Shown in pieces: positions 11,377-52,500 of a stretch of 64,000 nucleotides of DNA (positions within the stretch are counted from its first letter, which is position 1; each line of letters opens with the position of its first letter). The notes under the pieces were generated by a model. It worked only from the letters and a program-made list of their open reading frames with translations. It did not search any database and was not told the origin of the DNA. The translations under genes were made by a program, and so were the position numbers. This DNA is from Geosiphon pyriformis uo1 (Eukaryota; Fungi; Glomeromycota): contig JAAOMT010000086.1 in the NCBI GenBank assembly GCA_016748015.1, positions 1 through 64,000 on the forward strand. The letters are read 5' to 3'.

Positions 11377-12250
11377 TGTTATGAGATAATTTTCTTGTTA
11401 TATTTAATTGCTGATATTTCATTTTAATTGCAATTAGTCTCTTGTGAGTTCCTCAATTCTATTTGTGTGATAATGTTACTGTTATACTAAAGGCTTTCTC
11501 TTTAATGTTGTGATGTAAGTTATTTCTCAATTTCTGATTGTTGTGTGTATTTATGTACTCCTTCTCAGAGGCTGAACTGAAATCTACCTACTGTTTGGGG
11601 TCTTCTCTGAGGCTATCCTTGCAATTGCCTGATGTGTTTTTTTAATCTAGAAACACGGAATATTAATGGCTTTTATCACTTTTTTTAATTCTCACAATAA
11701 AGCTTTTATCAATTAGTAACAACGTGAATAATCTTGATCAGAAATTATTCTTTCAAGGAATTCAACTGATGAATGATAGTTTCATTCAATAATTAACACA
11801 AGTGAGTTTCTTACTACTTTGGGGTTATTATAATTCAGTTTTAAATATTCTTTTTCATTTCTTTTTGATTTAAAAATTTTTTGGGATATTTAATTTAAAG
11901 ATACAATTTAAAGTAGAGTTTGTTGGATAAATTGGATCTATTGTTTGATAAGTTATGATTTTTATTACTTGATTGTCTTTTCTCAATATTAAAGCTACTG
12001 TATATATACATGTTTGTAGTTCTATGAGAAAACACATTATAATATTTTCTTTTTGATATTTCAACCTGGTGTTTGCTGCTATCATCAGTTGGTGTTGGCT
12101 GCTATTGTGAATTGGTGCTTGTCACTATTGTGAGATGGTGTTTGCTACTATGCTAATCATTACCTTTCTAAGATTATTACTGCACTATATTATGATTGAA
12201 TAGTTTATATTATTTTTATAATTTTTTTGCTAAATTCTTAAACCATAACA
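11377..12250 (-). repeat. 3' LTR of element A
   Basis: Colinear with 20162-21035; preceded on the minus strand by the PPT. Confidence 0.95.
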
Positions 12251-12266
12251 TTATCCCCTCTTTTCA
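12251..12266 (-). promoter_or_regulatory. Polypurine tract of element A
   Basis: Minus strand gaaaagaggggataa directly abutting the LTR TGTTA. Confidence 0.85.
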
Positions 12267-12900
12267 AGATTGAGCTCCATCAAAATTGAAATTAATTTCT
12301 TTATTAAATTCTAAGTTACTATAGTAGTTCAATACTGTGTTATTAATTTGTTGTTGTAATTCTTGAAATTGCAAGTTGGTAAGTCGTCCAATACTGTTGG
12401 TTGTTATTATATTCATAGTTGGGTCCAACAATAGTTTGTGACAGTTTTCAAATGCTTTAAAAATTCTGTAAACTGTTTTTAAATGGAATGTAGTGTTGGT
12501 TTTTCTAATGAAAGGTTCTAATAGTTGGATAGTTGTTTTGTCAAACACTCTAGTTGAGTCTTTTGAGTATAATATTTGTATGTTCAAATGCTTTTCTAAT
12601 TGATAATAACAGTAGTTAATTGGAAATTTCATTTTCAAGTTGCTAAATGTGTCTGGTGTTAATTTACTTATTTCTATTTCTTCTATTATTAATGTATTGT
12701 CCAATGCTATCTCTAATTTTTCAATAACTTTGCTGATAAATTTGTTGTTATGTTTGGTAATATTATATGGTTCAAAATTATGTTTTTTTCTTGTTTTTGG
12801 ATTTTCTATTGTTCTTTTTATGTATGTTATTTTGGAGTTATTAACTGTGATTTCCAGATTGGATTTTAATTGTTGTAATCTTTCGACTAATTGTTAAGTT
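12264..12900 (-). CDS. ORF3 of element A (unknown soluble protein between IN and PPT)
   Basis: Frame of track ORF 12264..12704 stays open upstream to about 12895; homologous to the same position in elements B, C and D. Confidence 0.7.
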
Positions 12901-12988: not shown

Positions 12989-14368
12989 TTATCTTTTTGA
13001 ATAATGTTCAATTAAAACTATTAGTTCTAAATCTTGTGGAATTTGTTCTGGTAGAATTAAAGATAATTGTGTTCCAATTTTGAATGTCTTTATTATTATT
13101 ACTGATTTACTGTAATAGAATTTTAGCTGGTTACCATGTGCTGCTTTTCTTAATATTTTATCATTTAGTCTTAGCTTGTATGCTTTATTTCCAAGTATTT
13201 TGTGAATATAAAATAGTCTATCCCACTTGTGATCAAATTTTCCACTCCATTGTTTTTCCATTTTTGTACAATGCAACAATACTTTATCTCTAATTTTGTA
13301 GCTAATTATATTATCTGGTAACTGGTTATTATGTCTCACTTTTTGTTGTTCTTGTGATTGTTCAATATTTTGTGCTGCTTTTCTTCTTTTGTTTTCTAAA
13401 ATTTCTATTAATTTGTATGTTCTTCTAAGTAGTATTTCCTGGAATGTTGTTTCAGTGATAGTGTTACTTGGATAAATTGGAATAGTAAGTTCAACTGGTA
13501 ATATGGCTTTTCTTCTATAAACTAGTTCAAATGGTCTGAATTGTATAGTATCTTGTTTTACTGTTTTATATGCTAGTAGTACTGCTGGTATAAACAAATT
13601 CCATTCTTTTTTATGTTTATTACTAATTTTTGCCAGTGATTCACATAATTTGTGATTAAATCTTTCAACTAATCCATTTGTTTGTGGGTGGTATGGTGAT
13701 GACAGTGGTTGCTTGATTCCAAATTTTTGGCTAAGTTCTTTTAAGGTGCTATTTACGAAGTATGTGCCTTGATCTGATAGCAATTTTTGTAGACATCCAT
13801 GCTGGCAAATTAAGTCTTTATGTACGAATTGAGCTATGGAAATAGCATCAGCTGTTTTAATAGCTCTAACTTCTGGCCATTTGGTAAGATAGTCCAAAGC
13901 TATTGCAATATAATAGTTGTTTTTTGTTGTTATAAGTAAGGGTCCAACTAAATCAATTCCAATTCTGTCAAATGGCTGTCCAACTTTTATTGGTCTTAAT
14001 AATTCTGTTGTTTTTGCTCCTTCTTTTCATTGGTATGGGTCACAATTTTTTATGTATTAAATTATGTCTGAACTTATTTTTGGCCAATAGTAATGGCTAG
14101 TTGCATATTAAATGGTTGTTGTTTTTCTAAAGTGGCCTAAATAAATATCTGAGTGCATGTTAAATAAGATAGTTTCTTTTTTATCCATGGTTATAACTCT
14201 TAATGGATTATCTGGATTTTGTTGATTCTAGTAATAAAGTATGTGATTTTGAATGAAATCATGTTTTGCTAATTTTTGGAGCTTAATTAGCTTTTTTACT
14301 AGCATTTTTTTGTCTATTTGTAGTGTTTTCAAGCATTGGTTAAGGTTTTTGTAAAGATGGTTATTCAT
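12989..14368 (-). pseudogene. Stand-alone integrase ORF of element A
   Basis: ATG at 14368, in frame with ORF 12989..13897. Motifs: GHF, FDRIGIDLVGPL, DYLTKWPE, LLSDQGTYF, YHPQTNGLVERFN, GPY/F-like C-terminus. A few premature stops. Confidence 0.85.
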
Positions 14369-14397: not shown

Positions 14398-17300
14398 CTA
14401 TGTGTGTTTTATTCTTGACAAATAGTCAGCATTAGCATTTTTGGTATCTTCTTTGTATTTGATAATATAATTGTATGGTACTAATATTTGTGACCATCTG
14501 GTGTATTTTTTTTTTAGCACTTTCTTGTTATTTAATCAAACCAGACCTTTATGATCTGTGATAATTTCAAAGGGTTGGTACTGTAAATATGTGTTAAAGT
14601 GAACACAACTCCAGACTACTGGTAAGCATTCAAGTTTGTGTGCTGCATAGTTTTGTTTTGTCATACTGAGACTTCTGCTGGTATAAACAATTACATGCTC
14701 TCTTCTATTATCATCTTTTTGTGACAAAATGGCTCCAAGTCCAGTTCCAAAGGCATCTGTGGCCAAAATAAATTTCTTATTAAAATTCGAATAGATTATT
14801 ATTAGTGATTCAATAAGCTTTTGTCTAAGGTACTCAAAAGCTTTTTGTTGTGCTTTAGTCTATTCAAATTTCACATTTTTGGATAGTAGGTAATTAAAGG
14901 GTTTGGCAATGTTTGAAAAGTTTTCTACAAAGCAGTGGTAGTAAGATGCAAGTCCTAAAAAGCTTCTAACTTCTGAAACGTTTTGAGATACTAGAAAATT
15001 TTTCACTTTGTTTATTTTTAATAAATCTGGTTTTATTCCATCTTTTCCAACTACGTGTCCTAAAAATGCTAGCTTATTATTCCCAAAGAAACATTTTTTT
15101 AAATTAAGTTTAAGTCCAGTATATTTTAATCTCTCAAAAACTTGTTGTAAATATTGGAGATGATCTGCGAATTTTGGTGAAAAAACATTTGTATTGTCCA
15201 AGTAGACAACAATGAATTGCCACAGAATTCTGGAGTAAATTACATCCATTAGTCTTTGGAATATTGCAGGAGCATTTGTCAATTCAAATGGCATTACATT
15301 GAACTTATAATTGCTATTTTGTGTTTTGAATGCTGTTTTATGCCTGTTTTTTGGGTCCATTTCTACTTGCCAGTACCCACTGGTCAAGTTCAGTATAGAA
15401 AACCATTTTGCTTCTCCAAAAATGTTGAAAATTTTGTTAATTAATAGTATTGGGTATGAGTCTTTAGTTGTTTTGCTGTTTAGTTTGCAATAGTCGATGT
15501 AAAATCTAATTTTTCCGTTCTTTTTCCTTACTAAAACAACTGGTAAGAACCATGGGCTTATTGATAGTTGAATTATTCTTTTTTTCAACATGCTTTGGAC
15601 TTTTTCTCTGATAAAATTATGCTCCATTGATGGGACACGGTAAGCCCATTGTTTTTCAGATCTGGTGTTTCCAGTGGGGATTTGATGTTGAATGAAGTTG
15701 GTTCTTCCAAATTTGCCATTTTATGAAAATATATCAGAGTATCTTAAAATTAATGCTTTTAATTGTCACTGTTGGTCAGAATCCATTGTTCTAATGTTTA
15801 ATTTGGCCAATTCTTCTGGCATAAATTGATAGCATTCTAATGATTGTTGCCAATTTATTGAAGTGAGTTCACAGTAGAGGGCAATTTCTGGGAAATTTAG
15901 AATTTTTTGTGGTATTGATGTGTTTTCCAGCTCTATTTCAAGGTATCCAATGATAGTATCTTCCAGAATATAGATGAGTTCTTCTGTGGTGTTTGCGATA
16001 GAAATTTTTATCTATTGAGCTTTATCAGCTGAAATAAAAAGGTTAGTAAGTCCTATGAAAAACTGTTGACAAGTTTTTGGGTAGGGCTCAAATATTAGGT
16101 TTTTTTTTTTAATTGTTCTTTTTATTCTTATTTCTGATTTTCCATATGGTAGGAGCATAATGAACTGTTCAGTTTTAATTACTTTGCCTTTTTTCTCTAT
16201 TTTTTCAGTGAAATTCACTTCAATTCCTTTTTTTGTCGATCCGAAACCAAAAGTTCCTCTCGTTGTTTGTAACAATTCCTCATGATTTTCCACTGGCATG
16301 AATTTCCCAATTTTTACCAATGGTAGGAAAATTGCTTGTGCAATCTTTTCCTTAGATTCAATGGTATAAGGCTTTTCTGAATTGTTCTGTAGCAAAACCA
16401 TCAAATTTCCAGTGTATTCAGAATCAATTACTTCTCCTTGAATGCTTATTCCTTTTTTTGCGAAACTTGATCACAACACTATTTGAACCATTATTCCTGG
16501 CAAAATTTTAACCACTATTTTTAGGTTGATTTTGGTAATGCTCCTGGATAGTAACGTTGTGGATTGGTCTTCCAGATAACATAGATCGAATCCGGCATCA
16601 GTTGGATGGGCTTTTTCAGGTATTATTCCTAAGTGACTATTGTTAAAGTATCAGATGTCAATCACCTGTTCTAGGTTGGTATAGGCTACAAATTTTTCTG
16701 ACTCGGAACTGTCAGGTGAGTCTTGTTGATTTATTGATTGATTTTGAGACTGCTGATTCTCAATTTCCAATTTTTTTCTAAGTTCTTTTCATTTTGACAC
16801 TCTTTACAGCACTGATTTTGGCATAGGATAAAACAGTTTTCGCAGAGGTAAGTGTTGATTTAGACAAGGTATTGTTCTTGTTCTTGTCGAGTGAGGCATA
16901 GTTGTTGGTAGTAGTCCTGAAATTCATTCACTGGGTCGAACATGTTGTAGCTGACAACTTTGTCAGCTACTTTGGCTGACTCTTTCCAACTTTGTATTTT
17001 TTTGGCAGTTTTTCCTCTTACTTTGGCTTGTGCGGTGTTATACAACTCATTCTTGTCGTGTGAATAGTGCTGTAATCTTTTTAATGCTCTGTTGAATGCT
17101 GCTTCAAATGGCATTTCTCCTCTTATCTAGTTACAGATAAGGATTGTGTATTGGCAAGTTATATCACACATTCTTCCTCTGCCTGATATGTCATTCCAGT
17201 TGCACCCTCTTGGTAATAGTTCTCTATAAGCGAGGCACGGTTCCTCATCCCATTTTCCATGTCTTTCTGGATAACCATATTTTTTTTTTTTACAATAGTT

Positions 17301-20090
17301 GCAATAGTAGTGGGTGAAGTTTCTTGGGTCTTTGTCTGGTGCACTGCACGCAGTCATAGATGAGAGTTTCTTCTTGCAAACTGAACATTCTAGCTTTGGT
17401 TTGCGTTGCTGGTGGTTTCTTCATAAACTTACCTGGTTCCATTTGGATCTTTGTTTGCTAGTCCATGTTAGTACAGCTAGTAGTCCTGTTCTTTGGTCAT
17501 CAATCCAAGAGAGCTGATAGGTTTTGATGACTGGTAGTACTGAATTTTTTTCAAATTCAAAGGTAGGTCTTTGGTTGGTGCTGGGTTTTTGGAAGTGGCT
17601 ACAGGTGGCCAGAATTCTGGCCTGGTGGCCATTATAATTGATCAAAAGCTCTTGAGTAGTCTAGTCTAGAATGGCATTGGCTTTTGTTAACCAGTCATTC
17701 CCTATTAATGCTTGATATTATATAGTGTTTATTACTAATACTTTTGTAGGTATTACTATGTCATTAACTTCAAAAGGAAATGAGTTGATTTCACCATGAG
17801 ACAGTTTTGTACTTCCATTGGCTGTTATAATTTGAGACATTACAGCACAATCAACTTTAAAACCCAGTTGGTTTACTAGTTGAAGCATTATGATGCTTCT
17901 AGTGGATCCACTATCTAAGATAAGTTTGATTGGAGTATTTTTTATAGTGGCTTCCGTATACATAGCAATAATTGGGCATTTTTTGTCCAATGCTGCTCCA
18001 CTAAACATAGCCTCATTTTCCTCTAATTCAAAAGAAAAAATAGCTACAAGACTGTTATCTTTGGTGGCAACTGCTGGTGGTATTGTTTGGCTCAATTTGT
18101 TAAAGGAATTTTCGGTTCTGTTTATGTTTCTACTGTTAGTGTTTTTGATGATCAGATTTTCCAGTATATTAAGGTAAGTTTGTTGATAATTTTGGTAGTT
18201 TGAATTGGTTTGCTAACTGGTTCCGGCGCGGTTTGAATTTCTCTGAACCAATGTATTCTGGTTCTATATAGGCTGATTTTGGGGCTCAGGATGCCAATTC
18301 AGGTTGGCTATCATGGGCTGTTGCTGGTAAGTTCCTTGATTTTGATATGTGGTGAGATATTGGTGTGATAGTGGCGTGTACTGGTTTCTAAACATTTGGG
18401 ATGACACATAATAATTATTTTTACGTGCTTTCTGCATTATTTGCATTCAATATTGACTAATCAAATGTCCTATGCATTTGCAAAAATGGCAGGCACGTGT
18501 TTCTGTTCTGAATTTTTGGCACGATGAGCAATTATTTCAACTGTTGCTGACTTTCTGGCTGCATCTTTGGGGTGGTTGGTATGTATTTCTTCTTGGATCC
18601 AGGATAAAGTAACTTTCTATTTTCTTAGAGAGTTCTTTCCATAATTGCATTACTCTTTTCTCTAACATTTTTGTCTTATTTTTCTTCATTACTATGTTAA
18701 CTATTTGACTATGATTAGCTTCTTTCTCAGCCAATTCAAAAGCTTTGGTGAGCATTATGGCTTCTGGTAAGAAATTAGGATGGGCAGAGCATACTCTTCC
18801 TAAAATGCTGCTTTTTAATTCTTTAATAAACTGATTTAAAACCTAAGGATCAGTGTAGTATTCTTGTTCAATCACTTTAATCTGATGGTGAATTTGATTG
18901 AATCGAGCAAGATATTGGGTGACAGTTTCACCAGTACCTTGCTTGATAGTATTGAATTCGTTTTGTAGTTGAATTATGGTGTTTGGGTCACTAAAATACT
19001 CCAGGAGTGCATTTTTAAATTCAGTGAAGCTTGTGGGTTTTGTTTCCAGACTTTGATACCATGAGTCGGCTGTGTCTTTCAAAAAGAAAGGTAATGTTTG
19101 AATTGCTCTTTGGTCATTTCAGTTATTTGCCTAAATGGCTTTTTTTGCTTCTCTGAGCCATGTGTACATGTCCATTTCTTCTTTTTCTCCTGAGAAATCT
19201 GTTAGTTTTGCAATATATAATGTGGCCATTTCGTCGCTATTTTCTACTAGTAGACTTATAAGTCTAAGAGGAGGTGGGATAATATTTCCTTGAGCATTCC
19301 TAAAAATGGCTTTTCTTATATTTGGTTTTTTCACTTGATCATGAGTTTCTTGGTTTCTGGACTGGCTGCTTGTTCCAGTGACTGGTCTCTTTTTTGGATT
19401 CCAATTCAGACTCCTCTTCACGGTTTTCAAATCCCATTCCAAATTTTGGCTGAAAAAAAGAGTTTTGGAATAGCAATGAATATTTTTCTGTAATTGGTAT
19501 GTTTCTCTAGTTATATTGTTTAATTTTATCAGTATAACTAAGAGTTCTTGGCATTTGTGAAGTTGATGTTGATGATAATGCAGCTCCTAATAGAATTTGT
19601 ATCTTATTTTCTGGTGAAAAATGGTATGATTTATTTTCTGGTGAATAAATACATTGTTTCTTTATTGATTGAGTAACAGTTTTCTTTGGTGTTTGAGCAG
19701 GTGTTCATAGTTTTTGCTGGTTACTTTCCTGATTAGTGTTTAAATTTTTTTTGGTTTTGTTGGTGCATTCCCTAGTGTTTCCTGTGAATATTGGAAAATT
19801 TTTGTTGGCGTATTGCTCAATTTTTCAATGGATTTTGATAATAGTTGTGACTATTACTTCTACTTCCTTTGTATTATGATAATTCTCTATACAATCCAAG
19901 TTTTGCATGTGTGGTTCTTCTTTCTTTTCTATATGATAATTTATTCTGGCGTTAATATAATAAGTGAGGGCAGATTCTACTGGACAACACTTTTCTGGTA
20001 ATTTAAGATCACTTTGATGTTGTGTGTAAATAGCATGGCAGAATTCAAGAACAGTAAGATTAGGAGTTTTTGTCGCCACTTTTGTCTTTT
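14398..20090 (-). pseudogene. Gag-PR-Cys-rich-dUTPase-RT-RNase H polyprotein of element A
   Basis: Capsid-like region 19240-18700, CCHC about 18500, LILDSGS about 17915, dUTPase 16660-16235, RT ORF 14860..15627, RNase H ORF 14536..14766 (ATDA..GLGAILSQ); ends NADYLSRIKHT* at 14398. Confidence 0.85.
16235..16660 (-). pseudogene. dUTPase domain in element A
   Basis: Motifs DAGFDL, SSFAKKG, VIDSEYTG, KIAQAIF and RGTFGFGST. Confidence 0.9.
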
Positions 20091-20161: not shown

Positions 20162-21035
20162 TGTTACAGAATAATTTTCTTGTTATATTTAATTGCTAAT
20201 ATCTCATTTTAATTGCAATTAGTCTCTTGTGAGTTCCTCAATTCTATTTGTGTGATAATGTTACTGTTATACTGAAGGCTTTCTCTTTAATGTTGTGATG
20301 TAAGTTATTTCTCAATTCCTAATTGTTGTGTGTGTTTATGTACTCCTTCTCAGAAGCTGAACTGAAATCTACCCACTGTTTGGGGTCTTCTCTGAAGCTA
20401 TCCTTGTAATTGCCTAATGTGTTTCTCTAATCTAGAAACACGAAATATTAATGGCCTTTATCACTTTTCTTAATTTTCACAATAAAGCTTTTATCAATTA
20501 GTAACAACATGAATAATCTTGATTAGAGATTATTCTTCCAAGAAATTCAACTGATGAATGATAGTTTTATTCAATAATTAACACAAGTGAGTTTTTTACT
20601 ACTTTGGGGTTGTGATAATTCAGTTTTAAATATTCTTTTTCAATTTTTTTTAATTTAAAAGTTTCTTGAGATATTTAATTTAAAGGTACAATTTAAAGTG
20701 GAGTTTGTTGGATAAATTGGATCTATTGCTTGATAAGTTATGATTTTTATTATTTGATTGTCTTTTCTCAATATTAAAACTATTATATATATACATGTTT
20801 GTAGTTTTATAAAAAAACACATTGTAATACTTTCTTTTTGATATTTCAACCTGGTGTTTGCTGCTATCACCAGTTGGTGTTGGCTGCTATTGTGAACTGG
20901 TGCTTGCCACTATCACGAGATAGTGTTTGCTACTATGTTAATCATTATCTTTCTAAGATTATTACTGCACTATATTATGATTGAATAGTTTATATTATTT
21001 TTATGATTCTTTTGCTAAATTCTTAAACCATAACA
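20162..21035 (-). repeat. 5' LTR of element A
   Basis: Colinear with 11377-12250, same length. Confidence 0.95.
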
Positions 21036-24900: not shown

Positions 24901-27900
24901 GCTTTCTGTTAATCTTTCTTCTACAAATATGGTATGTATTTAGATAATAAGTAATGGAGTGGTTTTTGAGAATTTTTTGACAAATTGGTGATAGTATCAT
25001 GCTAATTCTAAAAATTTTCATAATTTACACAGATTGATTGAGGCTGGAAAGTCTTTAACTTTTTGGATTTTGTCTGAATCAGACTTAACTCTGTCTTTTC
25101 TGATCACTTGTTCTAAGAATTTCAGTTTGGTTTTTTTGAAAAAGCATTTGTTGGGATTAAGTTTTAATTCAGCATCTCAAAAGTGCTCAAACACTTGTTA
25201 AAGGTAAAGCAAATAGTCATTAAATGTTTCCAAGAACATGTTAGTATCATCCAGATAAACTACGACTGATTTCCAAAGAATTCCTTTGTATACTACATCC
25301 ATAAGACATTGAAAAGTGGCAGAAGCATTACAAAGTCCAAAAAGCATCACATTGAACTCAAAATTGCTGTCTCAAATTGTAAACACTGTTTTTTTTTTGT
25401 CTTTGAAGTCCATTTCAACTTGCCAATAACTACTTGCTAAATCTAATGATAAGAACTATTTCTTTTTTCTTAAATTGTCCAGAATTTCTTGGATAAGAGA
25501 AGTGAAATAACTATCTTTTCAAATGATGCTATTTAATTTTCAGTAATCTATACAGAATTGCACTTTTCTATTTTTCTTGGTAACCAAGACTATTGGAGAA
25601 GACTAAGAGCTTAATAATTCTTTGATTAAAGATTATTAAGCATTTGTTGTACTTTTTGCTTAATTAAATTATCACCAAATAGAGGTACTTGGTAAGTTTA
25701 TTGCTTAATAGGTCAAGTATTTCCTGTGTTGATTTGGTGTTTTACGATGTCTGTACATTGTAACTCATTTTTGCTGACAAAAACATTGGCATACTGATTC
25801 AGAAGAACTTTGAGTTGTATTTGTTGCAGAGTACTTAAGTTTCCTAAATTTAATTTATTGATCTCTTCTGGTGTGAACAAGTAACTTTCTTTTGGCAAAT
25901 TCCATACTTGTAAGATAATGTCACAGAACAAAAACAATTGCATGAAATCTAAAATGGGCTGAGATTTTTCTGAATTCTGAATATTTGGAGATATAAAACT
26001 AATAAGAGTTTCCTCCAGAATTTCTATAACATTTTTAGTCAGATTGTAAATGAGAATTTTAAAGTGTTTATAAGCCTTTGCGAATAAGTATAAGTTAGCA
26101 ATATTGGCTAAAAAACAGATTTTGGGATCTGCTTTAAATAACAGAACTTGACTTTGGATTTTTCAGTTTACTTTAAGAATGTATTGTCTGTATGGAGGAA
26201 TGAAAATAATGGTATTAATGTAAATAAATTCTATTTTGTTACTGTCTTTCTCTGTGAAATTAACTGGTATATTTTTTTTTCTACTTGATTTGAATCTATT
26301 GATTTTTCTGGTGATAAAACTTAACTTTTTGTAAGTAGTAACCAAAATTAATTGTGGTATTTTAATTAGGAACAGAAAGATAGCTTGGACTATTTTTTTA
26401 TGTAATTCTATTTTGTAAGATTTATCTGAATTGTTCTGTAACATTGTAATAATGTTTCCCATGTAACTGGCATCAATAATTCCTCTTTTTACATTAATTC
26501 TCTTTTTTGCTAGACTGGATTAAGAGACAACTTGTACCATTGTACTAACTAGAATTTCTAGTGGTATTTTGAGATCTACTTTTACTAGGGAGTGTGAGGC
26601 TATAACTATGGGTAATTGTCCTGAGTATTATAAGTCAAAGCCAGCATTGGTCTTATGTGTTCTTTCAGAGCAAATTCTTTTATTATTATTGTTATACCAT
26701 TTCAATTCTATTTCTTTGGAAAGATTAGGATATGCGAGATACTGTTCTGTTTTGGCAGCCTTAGATGGTTTTTGAAATGACATGTCTTTGGTAATTAATT
26801 CCTCTTTTTTCTTAGGATCAGGTAGTTTAATGATTGGAAACAGTATTCTTGGAGACAGATTGAACATGAAATTACATTTATTACAGTACTGGAAATAACA
26901 AAGAATTAAACAGTGATTGCACAGTTTAGTATTCAAGTCAGCTAATTTTTGCTCTTGTTCTTCTTAAGTTAAGGCCAATTCTTAGTATTGATCCTGAAAT
27001 ATGTTCAGATTATTAGTGAAAAAATCTTCAGTGATATAATCAGGTCCCTTATATTTAGGTACAAATAAATTTTTTTTGATTTTTTGTATTTCATTGAATG
27101 TGGTTTCTTCAGTCTTGGCACTTGCTATTCTCCTTATTTCATGCTCATTATGTAAATAGTCATCTAATTTATTTAGTGCTTATCACCAGATGGCCTTAAT
27201 TGGAATTCTTTTTTATACCTAATCATTGATTAAGATGGTGTATTGTCATGCTTTATTACATATTTTTTCTCTGCCAAGCACATTATTTTAGAACTTTTTA
27301 TTTAGCAAGATTCTGCCATAGGCAAGACATAGTGTATTGTTCTATTTGTTTTGTTATTTCAGTCTTCTAAATCTTTCCAATACACATAGTCTACAATAAT
27401 ATTTTGTCACAGTTGGCCATTTTTCATTATTTCTTATACATACACTCATAAAGGTTAACTTCTTTCCACAATTGACACAAATTAGCTTTGGAGGTTGATA
27501 AAATAGATTTTGTTAACTTAAAGCTAAATAACCTAATAGTAATGCTAAAGGTTCTTCTTCAGCTCTTTTTTTTTTTTTCCAGATTGGTAGTAGTGATAAC
27601 TCCATTGGGAAATCATCTGCCCAAGAAACTTGGTATGTCTTTATTGTTAGTGATAAAGTTGTTTCTTTGAATTTTATTAGTGGTGGCTCTAAACTCTGGA
27701 CTTTAAAGTGTCTACATATAGTCAGAACTTGGGCATGTTATCTATTATAAGTAATCTGCAGTTTCTGTATATTCCAATCAAGGATAGCATAGGCTTTGGC
27801 TAACCAGTTATTTCTAATAAAGGCTTAATATTGTGTTGCTTTCATGACCAGAACTTTAGTAGAAATTTGGATTCCATTAATCTTAAAGAAGAAATTATCA

Positions 27901-31933: not shown

Positions 31934-34900
31934 ATGCACACTGCAAGCAAAGATTCAACATTCAAGACGGAATTGAAATTTTCAAGAAATTACTATACCA
32001 ATATATTGAAAATTACATCAACAACTATTTTTTTGGAAACTATAATATTTCAGAAGTCAGAAACAACTTCTACAATAATTTAGTATACTATTTACAATTG
32101 GGAACAGATAACCTGAGCAGTAAAACACTTGTTACCTACTTCCAAGAATTTAATTTTAACATTATTAAGTATTGTGAAGGAAAATACCCAGTACAGTCCA
32201 AATACTTTTTTGACTTTGAATTAGAAACAGAAACATCTACCAAAGGCAAACAAAAAGTGAAACAATACTTAAGAACCACTCCAAACACTCCAATACTACC
32301 AAAAACAACTGCCAAACATTTGCAAACACCTGAACAAGAAACCAGTGTCAAATTACCACTTTCTATTACACTATTTCTAATTTTACTTATTCAATTACAA
32401 ATACCAAATTCACCACTTAACCATTTCTCCAGACCAGAAGATTATTAGTTATTTAGAAATCCTACTCAATAGCAGAAACCCATATCAACAAGCACCAATA
32501 TTATTGATTACTTACAAAAAAACAAAAGTAATTATTCAGAAAACTTGGAAAGTGAAGAAACTGAATCAGAACAAGAAAACAAAGAAGAAATAGCAACTGC
32601 TTATATTGCAAAGATTCCAGAATTTACTGGTGAAGATAATGATACCAGCCCTTAAAAATGGCTTGACAAAGTTCAAAAAGCAGGAGATGCAAATGGTTGG
32701 AATACAGCAAAAATGCTCAAAGCAATCCCATACTTTCTCTAAGGAACTGTAAGAGAATGGTTTGAAAACTTAGAAGAACTATTTAGAAATTGGCAAGCAT
32801 TCAAAGATGCTTTTTTACAACAATTTACCAACAACAACACCTCTATCACTCTCTGCAATCACTTTTGCAATATCAAACAAGAAACATCTGAAACTGTTAT
32901 GACTTATCTTAGGAGATTCAACAAACTTTTTTGATGAATTTAACAATTAGAAACCAATGAATACTATTCTGATGCCCAGATTTTGGATCAATTTATAATA
33001 GGATTAAAAGACAAATTGATTAAAAAAGTTTGTCCACATGCTCTAGCAGATTTAACAACAGCCATTAGACATACAAAGAACTATAAAATGGCAATAGAAA
33101 AAACAAACCATACTAAACTTGTGAATCTTACTATTGAAGAAACCAGCTCAGCAGCTGAAAAAAAAATTGTTCAACTTACAAAGAAGATTGAAAACTATTT
33201 TACCAACTAGCAACAACAGCAACAACCACAAAGATATCAGCCACCACAATAACAAAACCAAACCAACTATTCATTATTATCAAATAATTAAAGCTAAAGT
33301 TGTCATTATTGTGGAATTCTAGGACATTGAAAACGAAATTGCAGAAAATTGTAAAGAGATCAACAAAACAGAAGTAATCAACATTACTCTCCATTACAAC
33401 AAACTTATTACCAATTCCTACCACCAATTTATTGCCCACCAAAACCACAAAATCAAAACAATTACTATTAACCAGCTCCACAACCAATATAGCAACAATA
33501 TTAGCAATCTTTACCAATTCAGTAATATCAAACACCATCCACTTAACAATATCAAGTACCAGCCAGAAAATTGGTCCAACAAAACCAATTTACACCACAA
33601 AACCGTTTTTTAACAAACCACAAAAGATTTAATCCCAATAATCAACTAGTTTCCTGAAATTCTGTTCAACAAAGACCCATTCAGTTTCACACTTAACCCA
33701 GTTATTTAACAATACAAGAAAAATCAGATTTTCAACAAACTGCACTTTTTGAAGATGAAATTGTAGCACCAAAATCAAACTCTTTCAACAATACTATTCT
33801 ATCAGCCCAAATTGCCCAAAATGCCAATTTTTCAGATATATTCCCATTCAAATTTGAAGCAAATGAATTACTATTCTTGCTTAGCAATGCAGCAGTCAAT
33901 GAGCAAAAAGCTATCACTGCCATGTATACTAAAGCTACAGTAGAAAGAAAGCCTATTTGATTAATTCTAGACAATAGATCCATTGGAAGTATTATCACCT
34001 ACCAATTAATGCAATAACTCAATCAAAATGTCGACAGACCAGCCCAAACAGTAATTGTTACAGCAGATAGTATGCAAAAAACACCAATAGAAGAAATTAA
34101 CAACTTTCCATTTACTATTGATGGAATTACTATTTCAGTTAAAGCTCTAGTCATAGATGTACCTCAATACCAAACTTTTGTTGGAAATGATTAGCTTCTT
34201 AAGGCCAATACAAACTTAGACTGGGAAACTCAGGAGCTAAAAATCTCATATCAAGAACATTACACCATAGTATCTGCTACTTGTGATACTTTTAACAAAT
34301 GATCAGAAAAAGCCCCAGTATTCGAATTTGAGAAGAAGAAAAAAATGCCACTTACTGAGACCTACATGGCTCTTGGATCAACATCCAATTGGGCTGAGGA
34401 AACAGAATAAGAAATTTTTAAAAAATCAAGAAGATAGAAGAAAGTTAAGTATTTTACACCAGAACCACGAAAAGAACCATCATACATTCTACTAAAATAC
34501 AAAGATTGCAAAAAGAAGCTTTTATCTATGAGAGCCTATATTTCTTCAAAAGAAGAATATGAAACTTGCATTTGCTACTTCTGCAAAGCATGCCATAGAG
34601 AACAATTTGGATCCCCAAAAAGAAGTGGAAAATAAAACAACACACCTTGTCTCACATATAGAAATATGCTACTAGAAGAATGCAACTGGATTGATGCTGC
34701 AATGAGAGGAGAAGTATGTAATCAAACCTGTTAATATGCTCTATTAATTTCGAAAAAAGTCAGAAAAGAAACACTATTTAATGCAGCATGCAACAGTGCT
34801 CTCAATAAATTTTACCACTATCTTTATGATGCTGAAATGATTTTTGACTTAGTAATGGCATTAATTAATAGAGCCACCCAAAAAAATATCTGCCAAATAA

Positions 34901-37900
34901 AAGAAGCTAAATACATTGAGTATACTATGAAATTAGCTGGATTTGATTATAAAAATGAAATAGAAACCTACCACCAAATTACAAGTCATACATACCCAAC
35001 CAAAGAAGCTTAAATTCAATGATTAAAGTAAATAAACATTCAATTATGTGAAGAATGTGTTATGTCTTGTGATGATCAATGGTGTTTAGAATGCTATGCT
35101 TTTAGCATTCCCCTGCCATACAAAAATGATAAAAATAAAATCGAATTTAAAGTATCTGAACTGGTAAAAAAACTACCAATCACTCCTATCTATCTTCTTA
35201 AAAATCAACTATCTTTACAACTCAAATATTTTAACAACTATGGCCAAAGAATCAGATCAGAAAAAACACACGAGATTAATGCTAGATATGATCTAAGATA
35301 CCCAGAAAAAAATACTTTCATTCTCTAACCAAAGTCTGACAAAAATCAATCTAAAAATCACTTTTAAAATTCCACCTAAAGCAATAGTTTAAATTGCATC
35401 TAGATCATTATTGGCAAGCAAAGAAATCAATGTTAGAGAAGGAATCATAAATGCAAAATATACTGGAAACATTATCATTATATTGCAAAATGAAACAGAC
35501 AAACCATTTAGGATTGAACATGCTGGAAAAATTGCCCAAGCAATTTACCTATTCTTAATCAACATTTCGGGTTTACAATCAGTTAACAACAGAGAACAAT
35601 TGGAAAAAAGTAAAAGAGGAATACAAGGTTTTGGTTTAACTGAACGATTTACAGTACCAGTAAACATAGCTCTCAATGTACAGATTAAATCTTACCAGAT
35701 TCTTCAACTTCTCCAACCAATTACCATTTCACTTTTTGGAAAACATCAAAAAATTTACACTTGCTCAAAACCCACCACCATTCAACAAATCTTTGAATCC
35801 AATGAACATATTTGTTTAAAACATGAAATCTCAATCCCAAATGTTTATATTCCCAAAGGAATGAAAAAATTTTGAGTTATATTCTACAATTTTAATAATT
35901 ATCCTATTGTCTTATTGAACAAATTAGAGATTGGAATCATACACAGTAATATCTTTCAAGATAAAAACCCTCAAATTGTTTTTAATTTTATCGAAATTAT
36001 AAAACATATATTACTTTCAAATCTGAACATTATTTCTACTACTGAAAACTACTACTTTTTGGAAGAAAAACTTTTTTAAATTAACATGGATCTCTTAGAA
36101 CCCTAACAACAAAGACAATTGAAACAACTAATAGCTGAATATGCAGATATATTTGCAAAAAACAACAATGACTTTGGAAAAACTGATATTGTTCAATATC
36201 AGATCCATACAGGAGATGCTTCACCAAAATGCCAATCAGCCTATCAAGTTCCACCTGCTAGCCACCAATTTATCAGAGAAGAGATCCAAAGAATGCTCAA
36301 TAACGGATTGATTCAACCATCAAGAAGTTCTTAGGCCTCACCAGTAGTCCTTATTAAAAAAAAAAACAGAAAAATCAGATTCTGTGTAGATTATCATTAG
36401 CTTAACAGTGTAACAATTAGAAATGTCTACCCTCTTTCAAGAAGTAATAACGTGCTAGATGCCTTAGGAAAAGCCAAGTTCTTCTTAACTTTAAATTTGG
36501 AAAGTGGATACTGACAAGTCGAAATGGACCCAAAACAGCATTTACCACCCAAAGAGGGAACTATAAGTTCAATGTTATGCCTTTTGGACTCTCTAATACA
36601 CCAGCAACATTCCAATAACTTATGGATGTTGTATATAAAAAACTCTTGTGGCAATTAGTAGTTGTTTATTTTGATGACACTAATGTGTATTCCTCAAGCT
36701 TTAAAGCTTATTTCATTCATCTGCAAAAAATTTTTCAACAATTATAGAAAGCAGGATTAAAATTGAACATTGAGAAATATCACTTTGGAAAAACAAGTTT
36801 AATTTTTTTTGAACATATTATTAGCAAAGATAGAGTCAAACCAAATTTTAGAACAATCAGTGCTGTCAAAAACTTTTAAACCTCCAAAAATACCACAGAA
36901 CTATTAAAATTTGTAAGATTAACTTCTTACTATTAAAAATTCATAAAAAAATTTTCAAAAATTGCCAAACCACTTAATTATCTCATCAACAAAAACGTGT
37001 TATATTAATAGACTGAAGAACAACAAAAAGCTTTTGAAATCCTCAAAACAAAATTGACAACAGCCTCAGTTCTTGTTTATCCAGACTTTAACAAATGGTT
37101 CCAACTAGCCACTGATGTCTCACATATAGCATTTGGTGCCATTTTATCACAATTAAATAAAAATTGCCAAAAACAAATCATTGCCTATACCAGTAGAACA
37201 CTTAAGCTAACAGAACTCAAATATGGCTCAACTGAATTAAAAGCTGCTACTGTCATTTGGACTATTAAACATTTTCAACAATATTTGAAAAATAAAAAAG
37301 AATTTAACATTATAACTGACAATATTGGCCTCAAATAGCTCAATAAAAAAAAACCAAACAAAGTACCAAACAGTCTTAATAGAATGATTTTCTAGCAGAC
37401 TACAAATATATTGTATATTACAAACCAGAAAAACTACACATCAATGTTGATAGCCTCTCAAGAATAAGACAAAATTAACACTATCAACAAACTCACTACA
37501 ACTTACCAACTTACTAACAAAATAACAAAACAACAATAGATCCCAGAAATTACAACAATCTTAAAAACTATTTGAACACTTTTACCATACCAAAAAATTG
37601 GTCTCCAAGTAAAAAACATTAATTACAACACCAATTCAAACAATATTTCATACACCACAACAAAATCTATTACAAAAATTGCAGAAATCCAAACCAACTA
37701 CTCAGATTAATACAGGAAAATGAAAATAAAACAATTCTATACAACATGCACACAGATTCTTCTTCAGCACACTTGAGAAGAAATAGAACAATTCAAAGAA
37801 CTCTTGAACATTATTTTTGGTCTCATATGCAAAAAGACATTCAACAATATATAGAATTTTGTGATAGTTGTTAAAGAAGAAGAGAAACTCGTCCCACAAA

Positions 37901-42509: not shown

Positions 42510-45500
42510 CACCATATAATCTTGTTTTCCCTTGCTATCCATTAGCTTGTTACTTTAACCCATAACATAAAAGTGGTGCTTCCTATAAGATTGTCAAAAT
42601 CCACTTGTTTTTTATTGTATAAACAATTATTCATACCTGCCACAACAATCAGAAAAACACTTTGAAGCACACAACAAAAATAATCTAGACTTTATTGAAC
42701 TCAATCTTTTGCTCTTCTGCTTAATTTGCTTTCTTATTAAAGAACAATCTAGTAAACAATTCCAAACCTTTTAGAACTGGTTTCTGAACAAGCATTCAGC
42801 TGAAACCTACACAGTCTATACAACTTATTATTTTTATCAAGCTTATTTTGAAAACAACTTTAAAGAAAAAAATAACAACATCAATTAGCTTTTATACTCC
42901 ACAACTTTTAAACAACAGCCCCCTAATTCTGAATATCTGAATTATTAAATTCACATTTGGATTGCTGTCTATTAACTAGCTAAAACACTCTTTAAAACAA
43001 AAAAAGAAAGCTATCAAACTGCTCCTGTTTTTGACCTCTTCTTAAGTAAATTAGAACATTCTACACAAACAGATATTCTTGAATCAATGGCTTAAGATTC
43101 TATACAACAAAACATTCTGGTCATTCTCCAAAGTATACAAACTGCTTTAAGATGAAAAAACAATATTTTATTACCATTATTCAGAGGTGATGTCCAAGAT
43201 TCAATTGAATAGTTAAAAGAGTTACCACAGCCAACCAATATTATAATGAATACAAATTCCAAATTGTTGGTGGCTACCTTCAAAACTTTTTTGCTACTTG
43301 GTTTTCACAAGAAACCAATGTCAATACTTAGCAAAAAATTATTAGATGAATATCAGCAAATGTTGAAGAAAACAACACATCTTTTATTACCCAATTTAAA
43401 ATAAAATTTAGAACTTCTATCTTGATATCCAAATGGCACATGAAATTAGAAAAAAAAACCCAAGATCTTAATAAAGCTGTAACTGAATATGTCAAAGCAA
43501 TCAGAAAGTTAATCAAGTAGGTAGACTCTAAAAAAACTAAACAGAAGAGCAGAAAACTCATTTCTTTACAAAAAAATTGAAAACTGATCTCTCATATGTT
43601 TTTTGGCTTTTTTTGGCCCTAAAAAACAATCCCACAATATATATGGCTGTTAAACTAGCCCAATGAATTAAAAACAATTAAAAAATGTACTTGGGATCTA
43701 CACTTTCAGTTTTTGCTTCTGCTTCTGCTATGGCCCCTGCTTTTTCAATAACTACCACTTCTTTTGTTGCTTAAACTCCAGATTCCAATGAACAATTGAT
43801 AAATAGATTCACAACCAATCTTGTATGGTTATTAGAACTCTTAGCTTAGCAATCAAAGAAAATCAACAAACTCAAAGATCCAAATTTGAACTCTGTTTTA
43901 ATTATCCCTAGCAACTCTCTTATTAAAGACAGCAAAATCATGGCCCACCTGTGTGTTATTGCTGTAAATTAATTAGACATTTCTTCAGATATTGCAACAA
44001 TTTTCTTTTGCTTACCTCAGCTCTCAAAAACAATGACAATCAAAATAACAGAACTATTAACAATAATGTTTTTAATTAAAGATCTAATTATGTCAACATC
44101 AATTTCTTTGAAAAGAATTCCTTAGTTGAAGCCACTGTTTATTGGCTTTTAAACTGGTAGGCACACCTCCAAAAAGTGAAAATGCAAAACAACCAAAAAA
44201 AAACCCTTTTTATGCTTTTAACCTAACTGATAATAATCATAATATGGATGAACTAGCAATAAATGCTTTTGAATTAACAAAAAAAAAGAAAAAAGTCAAG
44301 GTTAATTTCGTTCTAAATCCAAACAAAGCATCTAAATCAACTGCTAATAACAATGAACTACTAAAAATTAAAGTTTTTAAAAATTCTCCAAAGTTGAAAT
44401 CCCCAGAAATTGTACAAAAATTTGGTTCTTATTTTGTTGTTAAAAATCTCATAGAAATTTTAGTTTACATTACCTTTGGCCAGTTAATAACTCATCCACA
44501 ATTTAGAAAAAACTTTTGCAAATCTTTGATCCCAAAAAAAAAAACACCAAAAACTAACAAATGCTTTCACCAAGCTAAATTCACTAACAACAGCAATGTT
44601 ATTTCTCTAATTTGCAAAGCCCAAGTGGCTGGCTACTTTATTGATCTGATCTTAAACAGTAGATCATTTGTTAATGTTATTGCCAAACATTTTTCTAAAG
44701 CAATTGGCAGAAAGATTAATGAACTCTCAACTAAACCTATGACCAATATATATGATAACAAAAAAAAGACCTGGGTATAGCTAAAGCTGTTTCTATTTAC
44801 ATCAATAGCATTAGCATGAAATTAACATAGAAGTATTTAAAACAAAAGAGTATATTATCATTGTTGGTAATGAGTGGCTCAAGAAAGCCAAAACACTACT
44901 TAACTATGAATTTTGTAAACTAACCATTAGATGTAATAAGAAACCCATTGTGGTTAAGTGCTGTTATTAGACAACTCTTTCAGTAACCAAACAGAACCAA
45001 GAAAAAAAACAATCAAATAAATCAGATAATGATGAAAATAATAATAAAGAAGATCAAAAAAAACAAAAAAAAACTGCTGAACTTACCTATACCATCTTTA
45101 CCAGTAATGGCAAGCCACTGGGCAATATTAAAGCTAACAAAAAAGAAATTATAGTAAATGGCAAGCTAATCTGCTGGTTTTATTATAATATTTTCAGAAG
45201 AATTTTTAATAAAAAGCCTGGCAAGAAAGCCAAATACAGCTATTGGTGGCATGGTTCTTGTGTCAAATGCTAGTGCAATAAAATTTTGTATTCTTTTAGT
45301 AATGAATACAAGTTTTGTCTGATCTATTACAAAGATTGGGAGCCAATTAATTTAATACCCAAAAAACAACTAAAAGAAATACAAAAATTCTTTGAAAATA
45401 AACCATCTGAAATCCAATTACTAGTTATAGAACAAAGCAAATCTTCCTTTAAAGAAAAAAAAATAGACATTGAAAATCTGTTGGCTAGAAATAGCCCAAT

Positions 45501-49549: not shown

Positions 49550-52500
49550 GTATTAAACTCTCATACCAATAATTTATTAACCACTACAGCCACAAATAAT
49601 CTATCAAATCTCATAAATTCAAACACTACTTTAAACTACTATATCAATTGAAAACCAAAAACTAAAGATTATGTACACTCAACAAAACTAAAGATTAGTA
49701 ATAGTAATATACCAACCAATTTCCAGTTTATTAAGCCAGCCATCAAGATTATGTTTCAGAAATTTGGAAAATAAGTACATTTAAAACCCAAATTCCCAGA
49801 ATTATTTAAGTTTTTTGGTTACTCCAGAAAATATCCAATTTAACAACCTAGAAACTAGCAAACCACTTATCAATAACATTTTACTAGCAATTATTATTAA
49901 AGATAAATTACTTGTTACCATATTTTTATTTGAATTAGAAGAGTTATTAATCACACCTCTATTCAGTAAAGTTACTTTCAATACTAAACCAATTATTATC
50001 ATGTATATTGACACTAAAGTTAATAACTACTTTATTAAGCTAATTTTAGATAGTGGCTTAGCAGGCAGTATAATCACAAGACAATTCATGGACTAATTAG
50101 ATTGTTAAATTAATCAAGTGGCTAGCACTAAAATTATTATTGCTAATGAAATAACAAAAACTTCAATTAGCAAAATTGATGATTTTCTGTTTGAAGTCAA
50201 TAGTATTATTGCACCAATTAAGATTTTTATCATAGAAGCCACCCAATACCAAGCTCTTATTAGTAATAACTGGCTGTCCAAGACTAATATTGTTTTTGAC
50301 TGGACCATTCAAAAGCTACAGTTTAGTCAAAATAGTTAACAAACTTAGATATCAGTTACTTGTGGCCACTTTAAAACAACTACTACTACCCAATTATAGC
50401 TATTGATAAAATTTAAAGAAAAAAAAAAACCTATTTGAAAAGTCTACCAAGTTTTATGGATTAACAATAACCACAACAAATTACTACCAATTTTTTCTTG
50501 GGATAACAAAAGAAAGAAAAAAGAAGAAAACAAACCACCAGCCACCACCAACACAAACAAAACAGTAAACAATTGACATATACTGTACTCTATAGACACC
50601 AAGAAAGAACTGCCATATATTTTACTTAGGTGTATTAATTGCAAAAAAAAGTTTTTATCTATAGAAGCTTGGATATTCCCAAACAAAAATTACTGGATGC
50701 ATATTTATTACTATTGTAAATCATGCCACAGAAAACACTATGACTACTTAAAAAGACAAAAAAAATAAGACAATAAACTATGTTTTATTTACAAAAAAAC
50801 ATTGTTCAATAAAGAAATATAGAATAATATTCTTGAACAAAAAAAACATGTAATATATCATATTAATACATAATTCTTATTAGTAACTGGATGAACTAAG
50901 AAACACTTTTTAATGCTATATAAAACTAAGCACACACATGCTTAAAAAGCTATTTACATAATAAAAACAAGATCTGAAAAATGGCAAGTGCCAAAGTTGA
51001 AGCTATTTTACCCAGTAAGATATTCACAATCAAAAACAACCCACTTAAATCTGTTAAAACCATTTTCATTTCCAATCTAGATATATTTCTTAACATCCTG
51101 AATAATCCAGAGCAATTTCACAAACACTACCAAGATTTAGCACTTACTAAAAAAAAACAAAAGCAGCATTTAAAACAATTAAACACTAGATTTTATAGGC
51201 ATTGTCTAATTCTAAGTAACTTTGAATATTATAATAATTATAATATTGTTTACAATTTACTATCATATATAATTTATTCAATTTCTGAAGAAAAACTAAT
51301 TAGCAGCTATACAGCAAAATTGAAATCAAATTTTAATTGTCATTTAAACTTTAATAATAATAACAACAACAATTTTAATTCTATTTAAAATAGCAACAGT
51401 AATAATAATAATTCAAATTCTAAACAATATATTATACTTTCAGATCTTTCAAAAGAACAGAAACTAAAATAGTTTAGCAATAATGATAAAAATATTATGT
51501 TAAAACATGTGTATGATACTGATATAGAATTTGATTTCAAGTACCCAAAAAAAACTGCTATTAGATTAGAACCATATTTGCACACCAATATTAATTTAAA
51601 AATAACACTGAAAATTTCAGCAATTATAATAATACAATTAGTGTCTAGATTTAGTTTAGCAAAAAGAGGAATCAATATTAAAGAAGAAATAATTAATGCA
51701 GAATATATAAAATATATTATTGCAATACTACAAAATAAATCAAAAAAAGCATATATTATTAAGCCAAATAAAAAAATAACATAGTCAATATTTCTATTTT
51801 TAATAAAAATAGCTTAGTTAATGCCAATAGAAACAAAAAAAAAGTTAAAAATTACTGCTAAAAGAATAAATAAATTTGAATCTACAGATAGAATAGAGAT
51901 ACTAGTTAATATAATAGAAAAAAAAACTATTAATTAAGAAGAAATTATTTTTACTAATCAAATAATTTTTATTCTACTATATGACCAATATTTAGTAGTT
52001 ATAGAAAGTAAAGTGAAGGGTCAGTTCCAAATTTTTGAAGCAAAACATCCTATTTGTAAATCAGAAAAGATTGTCATCACTAATTTTTATATACTAACCA
52101 AAAATTATAAACACATCAAAATTTCCATATACAATACAACTGAAGTCCCAATCAAAGTACTAAGTAGAACTATTATTAGATATTTAAGCACTAAAGTTAA
52201 GAACCAATTACCAATTACTATTCCAGATTTTTCACAATTTTATGGATATATAGATATTATTTCACAAATAATATACAAATGAAAAGAATGTTATTTGTTA
52301 CAACTAGAACAATTGGAGCAAATAAACTTAAAAAACTTAAATTCACTTTAAAGTATATAACTTAAGCTATTATTTAACAATTTCACTAACATTTTTGCCA
52401 GTAAAAACAAATTTAGCAGAACTAACATTATCTAATACCAAATTAAAGTTAGAGATACTATGCCAATAAAACAAAAAACATACCAAGTATCACCTGCCAG

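What the first reader, a model, noticed from the sequence alone, without database searches (positions are those of the whole stretch)
16780..17400. About 200-aa Cys-rich putative Zn-binding domain inserted between protease and dUTPase
Seen: A reads CSVCKKKL..YYCNYC..KW...PCLA..C..CDITCQYTILI..W..PF.A..L..Y.HD..E..A.AK, then C..C...C...CC.EC. The same pattern is in B (about 27480-26850), C (34490-35100) and E (50620-51260), with a remnant in F. D has a different, shorter Cys/Trp-rich insert (about 45160-45340). I recognise no standard Pol domain here. Inference: a captured multi-zinc module (chromatin targeting or counter-defence).
Basis: partly seen in the sequence, partly recalled or inferred. 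Interest (0 to 1): 0.7.

Follow-up and report, generated by a model that had tools for sequence, protein, structure and literature searches.

The report
Three-zinc domain in fungal retrotransposon Pol
Dead copies of a fungal jumping gene carry, between their protease and dUTPase, an extra conserved 200-amino-acid domain with 13 fixed cysteines that fits no catalogued protein family; it likely binds three zinc ions and likely serves as a protein-docking adaptor inside the element's particle.

Summary
Confirmed. Decayed Ty3/Gypsy elements A, B, C and E carry a ~205-aa domain between protease and dUTPase; F keeps its last quarter. D's insert is an unrelated, shorter module common in mycorrhizal-fungal gypsies. 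All named homologs are Geosiphon pyriformis gene models. One unnamed ENA protein (P0284) holds the domain intact and in frame within protease-domain-dUTPase-RT, at 49% identity. Thirteen cysteines are shared across subfamilies 32-49% alike. Codon-position conservation shows protein-level selection, and RT trees suggest one origin. It reaches no Pfam cut-off. The model shows a treble-clef-like first finger, resembling half a LIM domain (not significant), a second finger, a helical bundle and a third Cys cluster. The domain is net acidic. Best reading (0.4): a likely three-zinc protein-docking adaptor made with Pol, probably tethering dUTPase or other Pol products in the particle. Chromatin targeting or counter-defence stays open (0.25). 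No donor gene was found. This scan noted longer Cys/His inserts at the same junction in other fungal DNA; no sequence likeness was found. New variant of a known kind; interest 0.42.

The parts
16773..17408 (-). Cys-rich accessory domain, copy A (about 205-212 aa; stops at codons starting 17129 and 16862)
17277..17393 (-). Finger 1: C8-x2-C11-x24-C36-x2-C39, predicted treble-clef type, resembles the second finger of LIM
17145..17255 (-). Finger 2: C58-x2-C61-x19-C81-x3-C85 (position 61 is Tyr in copy A)
16983..17162 (-). Helical bundle, residues about 83-142, the most confident part of both models
16797..16889 (-). Helix plus third Cys cluster C189-x2-C192-x3-C196-x4-C201-x2-C204
17718..18002 (-). 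Aspartyl protease of element A
16230..16650 (-). dUTPase of element A (a frameshift near 16770 separates it from the domain in this decayed copy)
14860..15720 (-). Reverse transcriptase of element A
   Evidence: PF00078 E 5e-27
12989..14026 (-). Integrase of element A; no chromodomain match
18693..19130 (-). Gag capsid region of element A
20171..21035 (-). 5' LTR of element A
   Evidence: 93.6% to the other LTR; 53 of 55 differences are transitions
11386..12250 (-). 3' LTR of element A
26856..27491 (-). Same domain, copy B (10 stops)
34489..35100 (+). Same domain, copy C (5 stops)
50625..51260 (+). Same domain, copy E (frameshift near 50846, heavily decayed)
57173..57335 (+). C-terminal remnant of the domain in copy F
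45175..45387 (+). Unrelated CxC-x9/10-CxxC module of element D, between protease and RT

Best explanation
This is a conserved accessory domain encoded in frame in the Pol polyprotein of one clade of fungal Ty3/Gypsy elements, which likely binds three zinc ions and likely works as a protein-docking adaptor inside the element's particle. Shown: the order protease-linker-domain-linker-dUTPase-RT in one open frame (P0284), 13 conserved cysteines, and selection at the protein level. Predicted: finger 1 is a treble clef, finger 2 packs on a helical bundle, and the last cluster is a third zinc site. Inferred: the domain is packaged with Gag-Pol and probably stays on the N-terminus of the dUTPase, or is cut free by the protease. 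It would then hold the dUTPase or another Pol product at the reverse-transcription complex through protein contacts. That is the job the nucleocapsid part is thought to do for betaretroviral dUTPases, there through nucleic acid. That it is a real, selected, probably zinc-bound domain: about 0.9. That this is its job: about 0.4.
For: In-frame and intact in P0284. The 13 Cys columns are 80-98% Cys among 356 domain pieces from 281 proteins, against a median top-residue frequency of 59% over all columns; the commonest substitution is Tyr at 11 of the 13, as G-to-A decay would give. Identity by codon position 1/2/3 is 0.51/0.64/0.45 (A-B), 0.56/0.65/0.44 (A-C) and 0.49/0.60/0.42 (B-C), the same pattern as in protease, dUTPase and RT. 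P0284 against the A family: domain 49%, protease 65%, dUTPase 56%, RT 56%, the linker to dUTPase 19%. A, B, C and E group in the RT tree (SH-aLRT 97), and P0284 joins them (90). The second model (pLDDT 77.5; 77-86 over finger 1) draws LIM, RING, ClpX and E6 zinc fingers as its top Foldseek rows, for example FHL2 LIM3 at probability 0.93, 39 columns, rmsd 1.9, E 0.70. LIM fingers bind proteins (recalled). The domain is net acidic: K+R 22-23 against D+E 30-38 in three intact members. It is followed by dUTPase in 4 of 4 full window copies and in P0284. Precedent for a zinc module fused ahead of a dUTPase: PMC4531489, passages.
Against: All treble-clef matches are below significance (best Foldseek E 0.17; LIM in 1 of 50 members at 21.6 bits against a cut-off of 22.9). 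Zinc binding and the pairing of the cysteines were not measured. dUTPase does not need the domain: 7 of 120 RT relatives carry a dUTPase, and none scores with the domain profile (best E 0.051 in the set). In the same wider group, 26 of the 68 with a detected protease carry a different Cys module and no dUTPase, so zinc modules at this junction are not tied to dUTPase. The 46-aa linker to the dUTPase is poorly conserved and could be cleaved. Finger 1 is slightly basic with a conserved KKL, so nucleic-acid binding is not excluded. The trees are quick searches with long, compositionally biased rows; no formal clade test was run.
Confidence: 0.4

Rival explanations
1. Host-directed factor: the domain is released from Pol and binds a host chromatin or silencing protein, steering integration or blunting silencing.
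For: A LIM-like finger and acidic surface suit binding a host protein. The integrase of A has no chromodomain match, so no other targeting module is evident. LTR sequences cover 41.2% of the G. pyriformis genome (PMC11952901, passage), and copies are under heavy C-to-T decay. Weak PHD match, CXXC1 E 0.11.
Against: PHD ligands are missing: no conserved His, no first Cys pair, and C21 is Thr in P0284 and Trp in one subfamily. The domain is separated from integrase by dUTPase, RT and RNase H. It is conserved almost like the enzymes (49% against 56-65%), not like a fast-evolving conflict gene.
Confidence: 0.25
2. Structural or processing role: a folded spacer that sets protease dimerisation, the order of Pol cleavage, or particle assembly, with zinc only stabilising the fold.
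For: Related elements carry unrelated, smaller Cys modules at the same junction (26 of 68), which suggests a positional need that different zinc folds can meet.
Against: 42 of those 68 relatives lack that Cys module. A 205-aa domain with three modules and conserved surface-type residues (K13, K14, K52, W53, K142) is more than a spacer needs.
Confidence: 0.17
3. Nucleic-acid-binding module, a direct analogue of nucleocapsid-dUTPase: it binds the RNA or cDNA and brings dUTPase to the site of synthesis.
For: Position ahead of the dUTPase; conserved Lys, Trp and Tyr; finger 1 has K+R 7-8 against D+E 4-6; the best VIA rows for the helical bundle include DNA-binding helical domains (Cas12f Z 6.4, rmsd 3.6, 59 aligned; Mu transposase Z 5.8, rmsd 3.6, 63 aligned).
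Against: The whole domain is net acidic, unlike the basic nucleocapsid segment (PMC4531489 passage). It has no CCHC knuckle. The VIA Z values lie in the background range for helical bundles (note).
Confidence: 0.15
4. Neutral passenger sequence or gene-model artefact.
For: All window copies are dead, and most database copies are fragments in spliced gene models.
Against: Intact open frame in P0284, codon-position pattern and invariant cysteines across subfamilies 32-49% alike.
Confidence: 0.03

Closest known systems
dUTPase-bearing fungal Ty3/Gypsy elements, e.g. PosPlaTy3-5 of Postia placenta (PMC2864245, passages)
   Same: LTR element with a dUTPase between protease and RT in Pol.
   Different: The passages read describe no Cys-rich domain before the dUTPase. 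That survey concerns chromodomain-bearing elements, and A shows no chromodomain. RT kinship to the Postia elements was not tested.
Betaretroviral nucleocapsid-dUTPase fusion of MMTV and MPMV (PMC4531489, passages)
   Same: A zinc-binding module directly N-terminal to a retroelement dUTPase, proposed to hold the enzyme at the site of reverse transcription.
   Different: There the module is the basic Gag nucleocapsid, joined by frameshift, upstream of the protease. Here it is an acidic all-Cys domain inside Pol, downstream of the protease and in frame with it.
LIM domain, second zinc finger (treble clef; FHL2, PINCH, Isl1)
   Same: Finger 1 has CxxC, KL, then YCxxC followed by a helix. It aligns to LIM positions 18-56 of 58 (E 2.7e-4, one member), to PINCH (E 0.044) and structurally to FHL2 LIM3.
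   Different: No first LIM finger and no conserved His-x2-Cys. An 18-residue spacer separates fingers 1 and 2, and a helical bundle and third cluster follow. All scores are below cut-off.
CxC-x9/10-CxxC spacer module of gypsy elements in Rhizophagus clarus and metagenome records (found here; no Pfam name)
   Same: A Cys module between protease and RT in the nearest RT relatives, including element D of this window.
   Different: About 45 aa, one or two small clusters, no dUTPase, no detectable homology to this domain (hhalign probability 0.6% and 1.5% for the whole domain, at most 19% for single fingers).

Membership tests
Ty3/Gypsy LTR retrotransposon | Two direct LTRs flanking gag-pol | tested here: met
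   A: 11386-12250 and 20171-21035, 93.6%; C: 29982-30959 and 39756-40702, 83%
Ty3/Gypsy LTR retrotransposon | Pol order protease, RT, RNase H, integrase; Ty3-type capsid | tested here: met
   RNase H itself is taken from position between RT and integrase, not scanned by Pfam in the window
dUTPase-bearing fungal gypsy (PosPlaTy3-5 layout) | dUTPase between protease and RT | tested here: met
dUTPase-bearing fungal gypsy (PosPlaTy3-5 layout) | Chromodomain after integrase | tested here: not met
   No chromo family at E up to 1 in the integrase ORF or the following ORF of A; other copies not scanned
dUTPase-bearing fungal gypsy (PosPlaTy3-5 layout) | RT in the same clade as the Postia elements | not tested
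   No Postia sequence was in the trees
LIM domain | Two fingers, C2-H-C then C4, joined by two residues (pattern recalled) | tested here: not met
   No conserved His ligand; 18 residues between fingers 1 and 2; best Pfam score 21.6 against a cut-off of 22.9, second half only, 1 of 50 members
LIM domain | Treble-clef fold of the finger | tested here: inconclusive
   LIM chains lead the Foldseek list, but at E 0.17 or worse
PHD finger | C4HC3 cross-brace ligands (recalled) | tested here: not met
   The CXXC1 match (E 0.11) covers ligands 3-8 only; no His; C21 not kept in P0284; the match is absent with the cleaner profile
RING finger | C3HC4 or C3H2C3 cross-brace ligands (recalled) | tested here: not met
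   No His column among the ligands; no RING Pfam family among members
RING finger | RING fold | tested here: inconclusive
   RING rows at E 0.33 or worse with rmsd over 8
Betaretroviral nucleocapsid-dUTPase | Zinc module N-terminal to dUTPase | tested here: met
   (zinc binding itself inferred)
Betaretroviral nucleocapsid-dUTPase | Basic, Gag-derived CCHC nucleocapsid joined by frameshift | tested here: not met
   Acidic, all-Cys, downstream of and in frame with the protease
Betaretroviral nucleocapsid-dUTPase | Stable uncleaved fusion in the particle | not testable with these tools
   needs processing experiments
CxC-x9/10-CxxC spacer module of related gypsies | Profile homology | tested here: not met
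   hhalign probability under 2% for the whole domain

The most novel reading that the evidence does not exclude
A new three-zinc domain family that this gypsy clade uses as a host-directed adaptor, for anti-silencing or chromatin targeting, and that helped it overrun the Geosiphon genome. It would be one of several unrelated zinc modules that fungal gypsy lineages have independently loaded into the protease-dUTPase/RT junction, making that junction an overlooked accessory slot of Pol.
Probability: 0.15. Interest if true: 0.75.

Novelty: new variant of a known kind. Interest (0 to 1): 0.42.

Why it matters
It defines an uncatalogued domain that accounts for at least 176 unnamed 'hypothetical' G. 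pyriformis gene models seen here (28, 120, 18 more; about 440 clusters at 50% identity score with the profile), which are retrotransposon debris and not host genes. It also shows that the protease-RT junction of mycorrhizal-fungal gypsies holds at least two unrelated zinc-module families. Why fungal LTR elements keep a dUTPase was called unclear in PMC2864245 (passage); an intact natural protease-domain-dUTPase protein (P0284) makes one answer testable. The range is narrow and the function untested, which caps the interest.

Tried and rejected
Family libraries: Pfam gave no family for the domain at cut-off in copy A, copy C, P0284 or the members of A2 and A3 (copy B was given in the wrong frame, so that row says nothing). 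PHROGs best E 0.0085 in 1 of 22 members; NCBIfam best E 0.0052 in 1 of 22. PDB sequences: best E 0.11 and 0.41 for whole-domain profiles; finger 1 best a TPR repeat artefact, then E 0.041-0.044; finger 2 nothing to E 10; finger 3 only BK channel at E 0.05 or worse; one search was swamped by dUTPase columns. Fold searches: no Foldseek match at E 0.001 or better in PDB or BFVD for the full model (pLDDT 67.3, pTM 0.35) or in PDB for the N-terminal model. VIA best rows: Z 4.8, rmsd 4.7, 67 aligned and Z 6.4, rmsd 3.6, 59 aligned, helical bundle only; this neither excludes a known fold nor shows a new one, and the third cluster was never folded alone. ESM Atlas: best feature scores 0.80 and 0.83, under the 0.9 lead level. 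Other DNA: an exact degenerate pattern for the G-K-W-D-x2-P-C-L-x-C-G motif found 0 matches in JGI metagenomes, IMG/VR and GTDB; no confirmed loci with A4 in IMG/VR or P0284 in metagenomes; no phage match. These need exact words and are weak for distant kin. No RNA holder was listed. A complex prediction of the domain with the dUTPase gave no verdict. No whole genome is held for the window. An internal repeat among the three fingers was rejected (hhalign at most 6%). A CxxC-density scan of the window was uninformative because its 50-residue step missed copy A. A CpA-specific RIP signature was rejected: C-to-T rates are similar in all contexts. Literature: ten full-text searches listed no paper describing this domain. 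PMC3248453 has no occurrence of zinc, dUTP, PHD or LIM; passages of PMC4974528 and PMC10799480 added nothing. The Ty3 spacer between protease and RT is recalled only and was not confirmed. Additional file 1 of PMC2864245 (domain tables, old .doc) was not seen, and Repbase, GyDB, Dfam and subscription papers, including the Geosiphon genome papers, were not searchable; any could bear on 'not in print'.
Full report
Setting. The window is AT-rich and packed with decayed LTR elements. Element A runs on the minus strand from LTR 20171-21035 to LTR 11386-12250 (93.6% alike) in the order gag, protease, Cys-rich domain, dUTPase, RT, RNase H region, integrase. B, C and E have the same protease-domain-dUTPase-RT order; D has protease-RT without dUTPase; F is truncated. 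All 28 longer homologs of copy A and all 120 listed of 193 homologs of B, C and E are Geosiphon pyriformis hypothetical proteins. The host is therefore inferred to be this Glomeromycotina fungus or a close relative; none of the hits was flagged as the window's own. LTR sequences cover 41.2% of that genome (PMC11952901, passages).

Observation. Confirmed as detailed in the observation check. The copies died after insertion: 53 of 55 differences between A's LTRs are transitions, at similar rates in all C contexts.

Conservation. A profile of 22 natural sequences found 441 proteins at E up to 0.001 among 1.84 billion representatives, 365 at 1e-10; only the best 150 were listed. Of these, 17 were already named Geosiphon proteins. 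I looked up 19 of the other 133, chosen mostly as the least like named ones: 18 are G. pyriformis and one, P0284, is an unnamed ENA record; 114 were not looked up. P0284 is an undecayed open frame with protease, the domain (343-549), dUTPase and the start of RT. Among 356 domain pieces from 281 proteins (related copies, not independent samples), 13 Cys columns are 80-98% Cys and are all kept in P0284: 8, 11, 36, 39, 58, 61, 81, 85, 189, 192, 196, 201, 204. C21 and H117 are common in Geosiphon but not kept in P0284. Between window copies the domain is 32-39% identical, against 41-47% for protease, 43-51% for dUTPase and 51-54% for RT, with second codon positions most and third least conserved in all three domain pairs. 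Against P0284 the domain is 49% identical and the linker to dUTPase 19%. The domain was therefore selected as protein. In 21 proteins scanned for other content (20 of the 49 hits with long unexplained stretches, plus one window ORF), only retroelement families appeared.

Origin. RT trees place A, B, C and E together (SH-aLRT 97; 125 rows) and P0284 with them (90; 58 rows). D, also decayed and long-branched, falls outside, which argues against pure long-branch attraction. Both are quick trees without a clade test. Among the 120 best RT relatives from other sources, none scores with the domain profile (best E 0.051). Seven carry a dUTPase, six of them with a visible protease and only 23-136 aa in between. 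Twenty-six of the 68 with a visible protease carry a short CxC-x9/10-CxxC module and no dUTPase. D's insert belongs to that module, which is unrelated to the domain. So the domain was likely gained once, in a narrow clade, at a junction where related lineages hold other zinc modules. No donor was identified.

Anatomy. The second (142 aa, 89 sequences; pLDDT 77.5, pTM 0.52) resolves finger 1 as knuckle, hairpin and helix. Its top Foldseek rows are almost all treble-clef zinc fingers: Isl1 LIM E 0.17, IRF2BP2 RING E 0.33, FHL2 LIM3 E 0.70 (probability 0.93, 39 columns, rmsd 1.9), also ClpX, UTX and E6. Sequence agrees weakly: one member matches LIM positions 18-56 at E 2.7e-4, under the cut-off, and the finger 1 profile matches PINCH at E 0.044. 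These three lines use the same sequences and none is significant; they support 'treble-clef-like', not LIM membership. Four Cys pairs and a five-Cys cluster suggest three zinc sites; the pairing is inferred from spacing, as no coordinates were returned. The domain is net acidic; only finger 1 leans basic.

Mechanism. Being in frame in Pol, the domain is made and packaged with the enzymes (established Ty3/Gypsy biology, recalled). An acidic module with a LIM-like finger most likely binds protein. In the five full examples it precedes a dUTPase, and betaretroviruses fuse a zinc module to dUTPase, proposed to hold it where RT works (PMC4531489, passages). I therefore favour an adaptor that tethers dUTPase or other Pol products within the particle (0.4). 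Against it, sister elements run a dUTPase without the domain and others carry zinc modules without dUTPase. Rivals: host-directed targeting or counter-defence (0.25), structural or processing spacer (0.17), nucleic-acid binding (0.15), neutral (0.03).

Comparison and novelty. The element is a Ty3/Gypsy retrotransposon with the known protease-dUTPase-RT layout (PosPlaTy3-5; PMC2864245, passages). The domain reaches no Pfam cut-off and fails the ligand patterns of LIM, PHD and RING (patterns recalled). Ten literature searches listed no description of it, with the gaps named under Tried and rejected. Three earlier notes of this scan report 410-460-aa Cys/His inserts at the same junction in other fungal DNA; look-ups by sequence with P0002 and P0284 found no look-alike, so they appear to be parallel cases, unverified by me.

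Verdict. A real, undescribed, narrowly distributed accessory domain of Pol with an untested role: new variant of a known kind, interest 0.42.

Noticed in passing
window 45175-45387 (+); P0152-P0224: A W-x-G-P-x3-C-x-C-x9/10-C-x2-C module between protease and RT in 26 of 68 related gypsy polyproteins, including Rhizophagus clarus; 8 add a second CxxC cluster. No Pfam name in the two members scanned. A second uncatalogued family, wider in range than the one studied.
   Followed up: partly
window 12264-12893 (-); 22318-22671 (-); 39513-39698 (+): An ORF after integrase in A, 33% identical to the same place in B and C, with no Pfam match: a second accessory region of this clade.
   Followed up: partly
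window 820-2907 and 3399-3992 (-): A 695-aa open frame with a P-loop-like motif and an upstream coiled-coil frame, no Pfam match; it is not CpG-depleted (0.77 against 0-0.38 in the domain copies). Resembles Crinkler-like NTPase genes of mycorrhizal fungi (recalled, untested).
   Followed up: no
window 17228, and the matching position in B, C and E: Cys61 is Tyr in all 4 window copies though Cys in 164 of 175 database rows: probably a decay hot spot.
   Followed up: partly
LTR pairs of A and C: C-to-T decay runs at similar rates in CpA, CpC, CpG and CpT (0.16-0.40 in A, 0.36-0.43 in C), not the CpG-only or CpA-biased pattern one might expect; CpG counts are very small.
   Followed up: partly
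window 62928-63669: Tandem array with a 57-bp period.
   Followed up: no
window 60393-61391 (-): Sel1-repeat gene remnant with 108-bp repeats.
   Followed up: no
P0172: A dUTPase-bearing relative with a single C-x-C-x2-C cluster in a 136-aa spacer, absent from its closest relatives P0186, P0194 and P0201.
   Followed up: no
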